From a virus (Duplodnaviria; Heunggongvirae; Uroviricota; Caudoviricetes), in the IMG/VR virus record IMGVR_UViG_2703718769_000008, positions 1-23,051 of that record: a stretch of DNA of 23,051 nt; one strand, 5' to 3'. Position numbers: made by a program. Shown here piece after piece: positions 15,001-18,000 of the stretch. The stretch's first letter is position 1. Each line of letters starts with the position of its first letter.

Positions 15001-18000
15001 GAAGCAGAAGGCTGGTTAACGCGTAAGGCGCGTCGCCAGGGTAACCGCAATGCGTCGAATGTTTATCAGCTTAACGTTGCGAAGCTTCAGGCAGCGGCAT
15101 TTTCTCAACTGTCAGATTCTGACCCGTCAAAATCTGACGCATCAAAATCTGACACGTCAAAATTTGATGCGTCGAAATCTGGCAAAAAAGCGGGTTTTCA
15201 CCCGTCAGAATCTGGCGGGGATCCGTCAGTAAAATCAAAACATGATCCGTCAGATAAAAAACCTTCTCGTCCGGACGCTTCGCAACCGGACACGCAGACG
15301 GCTGAACAGGATTTTTTAACTCGCCATCCTGATGCGGTTGTATTCAGCCCTAAAAAGCGCCAGTGGGGAACGCAGGATGATTTGACCTGCGCACAGTGGC
15401 TCTGGAAAAAAATCATTGCCCTGTACGAGCAGGCCGCCGAATGTGACGGCGAGGTGGTTCGTCCCAAAGAACCGAACTGGACAGCATGGGCAAACGAAAT
15501 TCGCCTGATGTGTGTGCAGGATGGTCGTACTCACAAACAAATCTGCGAGATGTACAGCCGCGTCAGCCGCGATCCGTTCTGGTGCCGTAACGTGCTCAGC
15601 CCGTCGAAGTTGCGGGAAAAATGGGATGAGCTTTCCCTGCGCTTATCGCCGTCCGTCAGCACGCACACAGAAAAACGTGAAGACCCGTACTTCAAAGCCA
15701 GTTACGACAACGTGGACTACAGCCAGATCCCGGCAGGATTCAGGGGGTGATCATGAGTCTTTTGAATGACGTTCAGAAATTCATTGAAGCCCATCCGGGC
15801 TGTACTTCCGGAGACATTGCGGATGCTTTTGCAGGTTACTCACGGCAGCGCGTTCTGCAGTCAGCAAGCAAGTTACGTCAGAGTGGGCGTGTGGCTCACC
15901 GTTGTGAAGGAGATACACACAGACATTTCCCGCGCCTGACTGAGAGAGCGCAGGATCCGGAACCACAACCAGTTCGTGAAACCAGACCTGTGCGCAATTT
16001 CTATGTCGGCACTAACGACCCGCGGGTGATTTTGTGCCTGACCCGCCAGGCGGAAGAACTGGAGTCCAGGGGCTTATACCGTCGTGCTGCAACGGTGTGG
16101 ATGGCGGCATTCCGTGAAAGCCACTCCCAGCCAGAACGAAACAATTTTCTGGCGCGTCGTGAACGGTGTTTACGGAAAAGCAGTAAGCGGGCTGCATCAG
16201 GTGAAGAGTGGTATCTCTCAGGGAATTACGTGGGGGCTTAATGAGTAATAAATATTGCCAGGCGCTGGCGGAACTGCGGAACAAACCAGCCCATGAACTG
16301 AAGGAAGTGGGCGATCAGTGGCGCACGCCGGACAACATTTTCTGGGGAATTAACACTCTGTTTGGCCCGTTTGTTCTGGATCTGTTTACTGACGGTGATA
16401 ACGCCAAATGTGCTGCGTATTACACGGCGGAAGACAACGCGCTGGCGCATGACTGGTCAGAACGCCTTGCGGAGCTTAAAGGTGCTGCCTTTGGTAATCC
16501 CCCATACAGCCGCGCCAGTCAGCATGAGGGGCAATACATCACCGGCATGCGTTACATCATGAAGCATGCCAGTGCCATGCGTGATAAAGGCGGGCGCTAT
16601 GTTTTCCTGATCAAAGCTGCCACCAGCGAAGTGTGGTGGCCGGAAGATGCAGATCATATTGCTTTTATTCGCGGGCGTATTGGTTTTGAACTGCCTGCCT
16701 GGTTTATCCCGAAGGATGAGAAGCAGGTGCCGACAGGCGCTTTCTTCGCTGGTGCTATTGCTGTTTTCGACAAGACCTGGAAGGGACCGGCAATCAGCTA
16801 CATCGGGCGCTATGAACTTGAGGCATGTGGTGAGGCCTTTCTGGCGCAGGTTCGCCAGCAGGCAGAAAAACTGGTCAGGGAGATGGCGGCATGACGACGT
16901 TAACTCAATGCCAGCAGCAGGTGCTGGATATGCTGATTTCTTATCAGAAAGAACGTGGCTTCCCGCCAACCAATCAGGAGGTGGCAACCATGCTGGGATA
17001 CCGTTCAGTGAATGCAGCGGTGGAGCATCTTCGCGCACTGGAGAAAAAAGGCGTCATCACGATAAAGCGTGGCGTGGCCCGGGGCATCACGCTTCATACC
17101 GCGGTGAAGGACGACGACAGCGAGGCGGTCGGGATTATCCGCTCACTGCTTGTCGGTGAGGAAAACGCAAGGCTGCGTGCAACCCACTGGTTACATGAGA
17201 GGGGCCTGAAAGTATGAAGCTGATCCTGCCTTTTCCGCCCAGCGTGAACACGTACTGGCGACACCCCAACAAAGGGGCGTTTGCTGGTAAGAGCCTGATA
17301 AGCGCGGCGGGGCGAAAATTCCAGAGCGCGGCGTGCGCAGCAATAGTTGAGCAGTTACGTCGTCTGCCGAAACCAACGTCGGCACCTGCTTCAGTGGAGA
17401 TCGTGTTGTTTCCTCCGGATAACAGGATCCGCGATCTGGACAACTATAACAAGGCGCTGTTTGACGCCCTGACCCACGCGGGGGTGTGGGAAGACGACAG
17501 TCAGGTGAAAAGAATGCTGGTGGAGTGGGGACCGGTTATCCCGGAAGGGAAGGTCGAGATCACTATCAGTAAGTACGAGAAAACGGCGGGTGCAGCTGCC
17601 TGATTAAGAGGAGAAACGAAGTATGAATAATCTGATGGTCATTGATGGTATTGAAGTTCGTCGTGATGCTTATGAGCGTTACAGCCTGAACGATCTGCAT
17701 CGCGCAGCAGTAGCATCTGGTGCAAATGCCAGAACCAAGGAGCCAGGAAAGTTTCTTTCCAGCCAACAAACTGTTGATCTTGTTCATGAATTAATCAACA
17801 CCCAGAATTTGGGTGTTGACCCAGTGAGTGTGATTCATGGGGGAAATGAACGGGGAACGTATGTCTGTAAGGAACTGGTGTATGCCTATGCAATGTGGAT
17901 CAGCCCGTCATTCCATCTGAAGGTGATCCGTACTTTCGATATGGTAACCAGCGCGCCGGAAAAGTTATCCGGACAGGCTGCTGACAAGATGCAGGCTGGC

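What the first reader, a model, noticed from the sequence alone, without database searches (positions are those of the whole stretch)
15112..15260. Replication origin iterons embedded in the initiator coding sequence
Five tandem 15-bp-period copies of tcaaaatctgac-like units, followed by degenerate copies, lie inside the initiator gene and are read in-frame as pentapeptide repeats. This is the lambda-O arrangement (ori within O) but with 15-bp rather than 19-bp iterons. No separate helicase-loader (P or DnaC-like) gene follows; the next gene is a PerC/ANR-like regulator, so helicase recruitment may reside in the initiator C-terminal domain or rely on a host factor.
Basis: partly seen in the sequence, partly recalled or inferred. 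Interest (0 to 1): 0.45.

Follow-up and report, generated by a model that had tools for sequence, protein, structure and literature searches.

The report
Lambda-like phage origin inside initiator gene
The repeats are very probably the replication origin of a common SfIV/CPS-53-type E. coli/Shigella prophage, lying inside its lambda-O-like initiator gene as in phage lambda; this is ordinary in kind, except that the phage has no helicase-loader gene and its initiator ends in the same short tail as the host restart protein DnaT.

Summary
Six dyad-symmetric 13-mers (GTCAAAATCTGAC-like) lie in the initiator gene 14809..15750. Five abut at a 15-bp period (15111-15183) and a sixth is at 15204-15216. 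A 46-bp AT-richer stretch with two GATC 15-mers follows.

The repeats encode a predicted disordered linker between an N-terminal winged-helix domain and a C-terminal domain homologous to lambda O (BLASTP E 6e-26).

In relatives, synonymous codons are 78-100% identical across nt 15109-15288 but only 14-64% in both flanks, while amino-acid identity is lower in the repeats. That indicates constraint on the DNA itself. Repeat type also changes with the N-terminal domain (mEp460, Stx2a_1447, lambda) and not with the C-terminal domain (phiNP).

No helicase or loader gene is present in the window or in plaque-forming relatives (SfIV, SfII, mEp460).

New lead: the initiator ends in ...SQIPAGFRG, matching the extreme C-terminus of E. 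coli DnaT (...SQIPPGFRG). The same tail sits on many unrelated phage initiators, and about half of these are followed directly by a DnaC homologue, as dnaT is by dnaC. Helicase recruitment through this tail is inferred, not shown.

Verdict: a new member of a known kind, with moderate interest.

The parts
14809..15750 (+). Replication initiator gene (313 aa), a lambda-O-like 'Rep'. It is 98.9% identical in DNA to Shigella phage SfIV gp41.
   Evidence: ORF; PHROG 391 E 5.5e-135; SfIV, SfII, Kati and others at 97.6-98.9% DNA identity; BLASTP against lambda O E 6e-26.
14809..15114 (+). N-terminal winged-helix DNA-binding domain (residues 1-102), the presumed iteron reader.
15111..15183 (.). Five abutting 15-bp-period iterons. 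The 13-bp dyad-symmetric cores start at 15111, 15126, 15141, 15156 and 15171.
   Evidence: The same array, with 3-8 copies, occurs in seven phages that have related N-domains.
15204..15216 (.). Sixth iteron (GTCAGAATCTGGC), 33 bp after the fifth. An A6 tract and a short GC hairpin lie in between.
   Evidence: The block TTTTCACCCGTCAGAATCTGG is conserved, with one or two substitutions, in six of the eight aligned phages.
15217..15262 (.). AT-richer stretch (61% AT against 48% for the whole gene) holding two GATC-headed 15-mers, GATCCGTCAGTAAAA at 15220 and GATCCGTCAGATAAA at 15244. Candidate unwinding region.
   Evidence: Composition; repeat family D7; conserved columns in alignment A4. The unwinding role is inferred from lambda.
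15109..15288 (.). Full extent of the cis-element, defined as an island of suppressed synonymous change.
   Evidence: Against P7641 and 733R5, the fraction of identical codons at conserved residues is 0.87-1.00 in the three 60-nt bins from 15109 to 15288. It is 0.14-0.59 upstream and 0.38-0.64 in the next four bins downstream. Fisher p values are 6e-5 to 8e-10 for five phages.
15355..15639 (+). Lambda-O-type C-terminal domain (residues about 183-277). In lambda this is the P-binding part of O.
   Evidence: BLASTP alignment to lambda O residues 186-270. It is helical, with block-mean pLDDT 65-93. No Pfam model matches and no solved structure was found.
15712..15747 (+). DnaT-like C-terminal tail VDYSQIPAGFRG (residues 302-313), on a low-confidence and presumably flexible segment.
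   Evidence: 8 of 9 residues are identical to the last 9 residues of E. coli DnaT. hhalign of the family profile against DnaT matches only the tail: probability 86.7%, E 4e-6. The tail is conserved in DnaT of 79 distinct Enterobacteriaceae sequences.
15747..16241 (+). Neighbouring PerC-family gene. It occupies the position where lambda has P, but it is not a loader.
   Evidence: Pfam PF06069 E 8e-9 and PHROG 1324 'transcriptional activator'. It is absent after rep in phiNP, P7641, LLS and 733R5, so it is not an obligate partner.

Best explanation
This is the vegetative replication origin of a lambdoid prophage of the SfIV/SfII/CPS-53 type, embedded in its own initiator gene.

Shown here:
- The gene encodes a two-domain protein: an N-terminal winged helix, a disordered linker, and a C-terminal domain homologous to lambda O.
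- The linker-coding DNA carries six dyad-symmetric 13-mers plus an adjacent AT-richer block.
- This 180-bp segment is conserved at synonymous sites.
- The repeat type co-varies with the N-terminal domain.

Inferred by analogy with lambda:
- After induction, rightward transcription from the cI/cro region makes the initiator.
- Its winged-helix domain binds the 13-mers as dimers and builds an O-some-like complex on 15111-15216.
- The neighbouring AT-rich GATC 15-mers (15217-15262) are destabilised.

Inferred, and the least certain step:
- No P, DnaC-like or helicase gene exists in the window.
- The lambda-O-type C-domain, together with its flexible tail ...SQIPAGFRG, therefore recruits the host DnaB-DnaC complex directly.
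- That tail copies the C-terminus of the host primosomal protein DnaT, whose gene sits directly upstream of dnaC.
For: Repeats are real and non-random.

Initiator identity:
- PHROG 391 match at E 5.5e-135.
- HTH_36 winged helix.
- C-domain against lambda O at E 6e-26.
- The lambda iterons lie at the equivalent place in O.

DNA-level constraint:
- Identical-codon fraction at conserved residues is 0.78-0.94 in residues 99-160, against 0.31-0.49 in the N-domain, for phiNP, P7641, 733R5, LLS and YeP2 (p 6e-5 to 8e-10).
- Amino-acid identity is lower in the repeats than in the N-domain.
- The island is bounded on both sides.
- One KH16-043 copy is in a different reading frame.
- Relatives carry arrays whose periods (23 bp; 21-22 bp) are not multiples of three.

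Module swaps:
- mEp460 has the same C-domain but a different N-domain and different repeats.
- phiNP has the same N-domain and the same repeats but a different C-domain.

Functional module: the same rep gene occurs in isolated phages SfIV, SfII, Kati and others, and the same loader-less layout occurs in mEp460 and phiNP.

No loader.

Tail:
- Match to DnaT.
- Conserved in DnaT orthologues, with dnaC within 40 nt downstream in 77 of 80 species.
- Among viral-contig ORFs of at least 180 aa ending in IPPGFRG, there are 109 proteins in 14 clusters. A DnaC homologue starts 2-6 nt downstream in about half of them, and single clusters occur both with and without it.
- Lambda O has P and lacks the tail.
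Against: - No experiment shows origin activity or initiator binding for this module. I checked only the SfIV and SfI genome papers, and neither describes an origin.
- A 15-bp centre-to-centre spacing leaves almost no room between adjacent dimers and is not in helical phase. Occupancy of all five sites at once is therefore doubtful.
- The AT-rich block is only modestly AT-rich (61%).
- The function of the DnaT tail is itself not defined. Truncation of residues 154-179 only lowered ssDNA affinity and cooperativity (PMC4132743). The 2026 preprimosome paper proposes the DnaT N-terminal domain, not the tail, as the possible DnaB/DnaC recruiter (PMC13377028).
- The tail match is short: 9 to 21 residues.
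- Synonymous conservation could in principle reflect a recently exchanged segment, although the lower amino-acid identity in that segment argues against this.
Confidence: 0.75

Rival explanations
1. The origin is the same, but the helicase arrives by a different route. The DnaT-like tail docks onto PriA (or PriB), so the initiator feeds the opened origin into the host PriA-PriB-DnaT restart primosome rather than touching DnaB-DnaC itself.
For: The DnaT C-terminal domain docks on PriA through a conserved hydrophobic interface (PMC13377028). Some phage initiators carry the whole DnaT C-terminal domain (PF17948), for example SPN1S at E 4e-18.
Against: The window protein has only the tail, not the three-helix bundle. 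Tail-bearing genes are followed directly by a dnaC homologue in about half of the viral contigs and in the host operon, which points to DnaC as the partner. The text of the 2026 paper does not place the tail in the PriA interface.
Confidence: 0.15
2. The array is a set of initiator-binding sites used for autoregulation or for pausing transcription or translation within rep. The true origin lies elsewhere.
For: Iterons in plasmids also serve copy control (general knowledge). A minus-strand terminator-like hairpin lies at 15204-15191.
Against: No other repeat cluster exists in the early region. All 13-mer matches with 2 mismatches or fewer lie inside the array, both in the window and in seven related loci. 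The conserved island includes the AT-rich block expected of an unwinding element. The hairpin stem is not conserved in P7641 or 733R5.
Confidence: 0.06
3. The repeats are only a slippage-prone, low-complexity (SKSDx)n protein linker with no function as DNA.
For: The 15-bp period is a multiple of three, the repeats are read in frame, and the copy number varies from 3 to 8 among relatives. The linker is predicted disordered.
Against: Synonymous sites are more conserved than amino acids. Each unit is an inverted pair of hexamers. One copy in KH16-043 is out of frame. Equivalent arrays in mEp460 and Stx2a_1447 have periods of 23 and 21-22 bp and so encode no peptide repeat.
Confidence: 0.03

Closest known systems
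Phage lambda ori-lambda within gene O (O/P system)
   Same: The initiator has an N-terminal DNA-binding domain, a flexible linker and a homologous C-terminal domain (E 6e-26). The origin lies in the linker-coding DNA. It consists of direct repeats with internal dyad symmetry and an A-rich centre (TCAAAA occurs in both), followed by an AT-rich stretch.
   Different: - Six 13-mers, five of them at a 15-bp period, instead of four 18-bp iterons spaced 20-24 bp apart.
- The N-domain is Pfam HTH_36, not Phage_rep_O PF04492.
- There is no P gene.
- The initiator carries a DnaT-like tail that lambda O lacks; lambda O ends ...TDWIYGVDL.
Shigella phages SfIV/SfII gp41 and E. coli K-12 CPS-53 (KpLE1) yfdO/oweS remnant
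   Same: Essentially the same gene: 98.4-98.9% DNA identity. The ori segment is present in 2,058 of 5,426 complete E. coli genomes. K-12 keeps an N-terminally truncated copy followed by yfdN (PerC) and yfdM.
   Different: These are annotated only as 'primosomal protein', 'replication protein O' or 'helix-turn-helix domain-containing protein'. The SfIV paper describes a replication module, orf41-45, but no origin.
E. coli primosomal protein DnaT (dnaT-dnaC operon)
   Same: Identical type of extreme C-terminus, IPxGFRG-COOH. The gene order 'tail protein then DnaC' is mirrored in many phages.
   Different: The window protein has no DnaT N-terminal domain, acidic linker or three-helix ssDNA-binding bundle. 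DnaT acts at abandoned forks through PriA/PriB, not at a sequence-specific origin.
Phage initiators fused to the DnaT C-terminal domain (epsilon15/SPN1S/phiV10 group) and DopC
   Same: Origin-binding N-domain plus a DnaT-derived C-terminus, with no loader gene next to it. Brezellec et al. 2017 noted an O-like protein carrying a DnaT C-terminal motif (PMC5509034).
   Different: Those proteins carry the whole DnaT C-terminal domain (PF17948). Here only the last roughly 12-20 residues are DnaT-like, and they are grafted onto a lambda-O-type C-domain.

Membership tests
Lambda-type origin/initiator module (ori inside an O-like gene) | Initiator homologous to lambda O | tested here: met
   BLASTP E 6e-26, 30% identity over 210 aa, strongest in the C-domain. 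PHROG 391 'replication initiation O-like' E 5.5e-135.
Lambda-type origin/initiator module (ori inside an O-like gene) | Four or more direct repeats with internal dyad symmetry in the linker-coding part of the initiator gene | tested here: met
   Six 13-mers at 15111-15216, in codons 101-136. The linker is disordered in the model.
Lambda-type origin/initiator module (ori inside an O-like gene) | AT-rich region flanking the iterons | tested here: met
   15217-15262 is 61% AT against 48% for the gene. It is conserved in relatives. The enrichment is modest.
Lambda-type origin/initiator module (ori inside an O-like gene) | Repeat sequence specific to, and inherited with, the N-terminal DNA-binding domain | tested here: met
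   Natural swaps in mEp460, phiNP, Stx2a_1447 and lambda. A graded series of N-domain relatives keeps the TCAAAATCTGA core.
Lambda-type origin/initiator module (ori inside an O-like gene) | Dedicated helicase loader (P) or helicase gene next to the initiator | tested here: not met
   No PF06992, IstB/DnaC or DnaB hit in any ORF scanned. The next gene is PerC-like.
Lambda-type origin/initiator module (ori inside an O-like gene) | Initiator-dependent autonomous replication of the ori fragment | not testable with these tools
   Needs cloning and replication assays.
Pfam Phage_rep_O (PF04492) N-terminal domain | Match to PF04492 above its cut-off | tested here: not met
   No hit for the window protein, which matches HTH_36 instead. 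Lambda O scores 123 bits.
DnaT (primosomal protein I) | DnaT ssDNA-binding three-helix bundle (PF17948) | tested here: not met
   No Pfam hit even at E up to 5. hhalign aligns only DnaT residues 159-179.
DnaT (primosomal protein I) | Extreme C-terminal IPxGFRG tail | tested here: met
   SQIPAGFRG against SQIPPGFRG. The motif is conserved in 79 distinct DnaT sequences.
DnaD-like / replisome-organiser initiators | DnaD N-terminal winged helix and DnaD/DnaB_2 C-domain | tested here: inconclusive

The most novel reading that the evidence does not exclude
The C-terminal IPxGFRG tail is a portable docking peptide for the DnaC-type helicase loader, or for the DnaB-DnaC complex.

The host DnaT would use it to bring DnaB-DnaC to the restart primosome; the literature I read states that how this recruitment occurs is still unknown. 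Many temperate-phage initiators, including this one, have acquired the same tail. With it they load the host helicase at their origin without encoding P, DnaC or a helicase.

The phage proteins would then give a simple genetic handle on how DnaT recruits DnaB-DnaC.
Probability: 0.35. Interest if true: 0.65.

Novelty: new member of a known kind. Interest (0 to 1): 0.35.

Why it matters
As an origin, it adds one more specificity class (a 13-bp site at a 15-bp period) to the lambda paradigm. It also pins down the ori of a prophage module present in about 38% of complete E. coli genomes, in Shigella serotype-converting phages, and as a remnant in K-12 CPS-53. That is useful for annotation and for induction or copy-number studies, but it is not surprising.

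The more valuable by-product is the DnaT-like tail. It links loader-less phage initiators, phage initiator/DnaC pairs and the host dnaT-dnaC operon through one short motif. It also offers a directly testable hypothesis for how DnaB-DnaC is recruited when no P-type loader is present.

Tried and rejected
1. First idea: the DnaT-like tail and a phage loader are mutually exclusive. KH16-043, which has no tail and carries a DnaC-like gene, fitted this, with the linkage kept in 80 of 80 contigs. The idea was then rejected: 673R7, POCJ13 and phiSTEC1589 have the tail and a DnaC homologue 50% identical to EcDnaC. A survey found both states inside single protein clusters.
3. A protein-database search with the DnaT tail returned only 4 DnaT fragments and was uninformative.
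4. An iteron-like 22-mer inside the N-domain coding region (14948-14969) is not conserved at synonymous sites in relatives, so it is probably chance.
5. No DnaA box with 1 mismatch or fewer lies in or near the array. GATC sites are not generally enriched.
6. There is no Rfam family in the region.
7. The Eru replication types of Stx phages all carry helicase or ATPase partners and are not this module.
8. Literature searches for 'DnaT-like' and 'initiator-solo' found no papers. My recollection that Weigel and Seitz (2006) describe initiator-only modules could not be verified.
9. A viral-contig scan with the N-domain returned only 100%-identical copies, so diversity was taken from GenBank phages instead.

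Full report
**Context.** The window is the early and regulatory half of a lambdoid prophage.
- It encodes a P22-type tailspike head-binding domain, gtrA/gtrB/gtr-type glucosyltransferase genes, integrase and excisionase.
- The early-left genes are YfdQ- and YfdR-like.
- A cI-like repressor lies at 12864..13556 (minus strand), cro at 13654..13914 and a CII/YmfL-like gene at 13907..14464.
- Then come the initiator, a PerC-like gene, Dam, a LexA-DNA-binding-domain protein, RusA, KilA-N, DUF968/HNH and Q.
- The initiator gene is 97.6-98.9% identical in DNA to that of Shigella phages SfIV and SfII and several isolated coliphages.
- The 216-bp ori segment occurs in 2,058 of 5,426 complete E. coli genomes.
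- E. coli K-12 CPS-53/KpLE1 retains an N-terminally truncated copy followed by yfdN and yfdM.

**The observation.** It is confirmed.
- Tandem Repeats Finder reports a period-15 array at 15118-15181, the top-scoring repeat in the window.
- The repeat finder gives six in-register copies.
- The 13-mer GTCAAAATCTGAC is over-represented: 18 matches against 7.8 +/- 3.2 expected, and 0 of 100 shuffles reach 18. All matches with 2 mismatches or fewer lie at 15111, 15126, 15141, 15156, 15171 and 15204.
- Each unit is an inverted pair of hexamers (GTCAGA/TCTGAC). The array is therefore an alternation of half-sites separated by 1 and 2 bp.
- An A6 tract, a sixth site and two GATC-headed 15-mers follow, in a 46-bp stretch of 61% AT.
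- The array is read in frame as SDSDP-SKSDA-SKSDT-SKFDA-SKSGK.

**The protein.**
- Pfam finds only an N-terminal HTH_36 winged helix.
- PHROGs place the whole protein in 'replication initiation O-like'.
- An AlphaFold2 model built on 45 sequences gives a confident winged helix (residues 1-102), a disordered segment (103-184) that includes the repeats, a helical C-domain (185-280) and a low-confidence tail.
- The C-domain aligns to lambda O residues 186-270 at BLASTP E 6e-26. This is a true O relative with a different N-terminal specificity domain.
- In lambda the four annotated iterons occupy the same inter-domain position.

**Is the repeat DNA functional as DNA?** Four lines of evidence say yes.
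1. *Synonymous constraint.*
   - In pairwise comparisons with phiNP, P7641, 733R5, LLS and YeP2 (N-domain 81-88% identical), codons for conserved residues are identical in only 31-49% of cases in the N-domain.
   - In residues 99-160 the figure is 78-94% (Fisher p 6e-5 to 8e-10), although amino-acid identity is lower there.
   - In 60-nt bins the island spans 15109-15288 and is flanked by diverged sequence on both sides.
2. *Dyad symmetry.* This is not explained by selection on a peptide.
3. *Reading frame.*
   - One KH16-043 copy lies in another frame.
   - The equivalent arrays of mEp460 (GGTCAAAATGACC, spacing 23-24 bp) and Stx2a_1447 (GTGCA-N5-TGCAC, spacing 21-22 bp) cannot encode peptide repeats.
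4. *Modular inheritance.*
   - mEp460 shares the C-domain but has another N-domain and other repeats.
   - phiNP shares the N-domain and the repeats but has a Phg_2220_C C-domain.
   - More distant N-domains (62% and 59% identity) keep the TCAAAAT(C/T)TGA core with altered outer bases.

This is the pattern described for lambdoid origins; that comparison rests on established knowledge and on the lambda record.

**No loader.** Pfam and PHROG scans of the ORFs from cro to Q, and of the leftward operon, find no P, DnaC/IstB, DnaB, primase or SF2 helicase. Plaque-forming relatives (SfIV, mEp460, phiNP, P7641, LLS, 733R5, Stx2a_1447, Ayreon) have the same single-gene layout. The arrangement is therefore functional, not a decay product.

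**The C-terminal tail.**
- The protein ends VDYSQIPAGFRG and E. coli DnaT ends EPDSQIPPGFRG. A profile of the family aligned to DnaT matches only this tail: probability 86.7%, E 4e-6.
- The tail is present on four different C-domain types joined to related or unrelated N-domains. These are the lambda-O type, the Stx2a_1447 type, the Phg_2220_C type and the full DnaT C-terminal domain of SPN1S and epsilon15-like phages.
- In 79 distinct DnaT sequences from Enterobacteriaceae, IPxGFRG is conserved, and dnaC starts within 40 nt downstream in 77 of 80 genomes.
- Viral-contig ORFs ending in IPPGFRG include 109 proteins of at least 180 aa, forming 14 clusters. A DnaC homologue starts 2-6 nt downstream in about half of them.
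- The largest cluster has a lambda-O-type C-domain and occurs both with that gene (20) and without it (17). The phage DnaC homologues are about 50% identical to E. coli DnaC.
- Lambda O, which uses P, lacks the tail.
- My first idea, that tail and loader exclude each other, was therefore wrong. The data fit better with the tail being the contact for a DnaC-type loader, whether phage-encoded or host-encoded.
- The literature gives no function for DnaT residues 154-179 beyond a contribution to ssDNA-binding cooperativity (PMC4132743). [quoted passage not shown] The tail hypothesis is thus an inference, with PriA docking as the main alternative.
- An O-like protein with a DnaT C-terminal motif (DopC) has been noted before (PMC5509034). 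I found no paper describing the isolated tail on phage O-type initiators.

**Comparison and verdict.**
- In kind this is the lambda arrangement: a membership test against the lambda-type module meets every sequence-level criterion except the adjacent loader gene.
- It differs in the N-domain family, the iteron sequence and spacing (13-bp sites abutting at 15 bp against 18-bp sites at 20-24 bp), the lack of P, and the DnaT-like tail.
- It is not a DnaT family member, because it has no PF17948 bundle.
- The tight 15-bp spacing is unexplained. Adjacent dimers would nearly collide and would lie on different faces of the helix.
The finding is a new member of a well-known kind, present in a very common prophage. 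The tail motif is the only element that might interest a replication specialist.

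Noticed in passing
window 14461-14819: Two overlapping plus-strand ORFs just upstream of rep both have family support. One is 14461..14799 (112 aa; PHROG 1170 E 3e-70; annotated as SfIV gp40). The other is 14598..14819 (73 aa; Pfam DUF4222 E 2.6e-18), in another frame and overlapping the rep start by 11 nt. It is unclear which of them is expressed, or whether both are.
   Followed up: partly
window 15220-15258: Two GATC-headed 15-mers (GATCCGTCAGTAAAA and GATCCGTCAGATAAA) lie 24 bp apart in the AT-rich part of the origin. At least one GATC is invariant across eight phages. 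The phage encodes its own Dam methylase at 16208..16894, which suggests methylation-sensitive origin function, as at oriC or P1 oriR.
   Followed up: partly
window 14948-14969: A 22-mer inside the N-domain coding region is 82% identical to the iteron-6 block (15201-15222), in a different reading frame. It is not conserved at synonymous sites in relatives, so it is probably chance.
   Followed up: yes
window 15191-15204 (minus strand): A terminator-like GC hairpin plus T-run lies between iterons 5 and 6, on the strand opposite to rep. The stem is not conserved in P7641 or 733R5.
   Followed up: yes
window 15111-15183: The 15-bp centre-to-centre spacing of the 13-bp dyad sites leaves only 2 bp between sites and is about 1.4 helical turns. 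How winged-helix dimers could occupy neighbouring sites at the same time is unexplained. Copy number varies from 3 to 8 among relatives.
   Followed up: no
L090 2944-3831 (Stx2 phage KH16-043) and L093-L172: A related initiator has a non-DnaT tail (...SSDKLTF). In 80 of 80 viral contigs it is followed by a divergent DnaC-like AAA+ protein (32% identity to EcDnaC) with a Cys-rich N-terminal extension. This looks like a separate initiator-loader pairing.
   Followed up: partly
window 16891-17217: A 108-aa protein consists only of a LexA DNA-binding domain (PF01726, E 3e-19), with no protease domain. It is conserved next to Dam and RusA in the related phages.
   Followed up: no
window 22372-23024: Two tRNA genes (22372-22445 and 22450-22521) and an STnc100 sRNA (22825-23024; Rfam RF02076, 132 bits) lie downstream of Q. 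ORF 22356..22682 overlaps the tRNAs and is probably spurious.
   Followed up: no
L380 (E. coli K-12 CPS-53/KpLE1): K-12 keeps the ori segment and the C-terminal two thirds of this initiator as a pseudogene missing its N-terminal DNA-binding domain. It is followed by yfdN (PerC family) and a truncated methylase, yfdM.
   Followed up: partly
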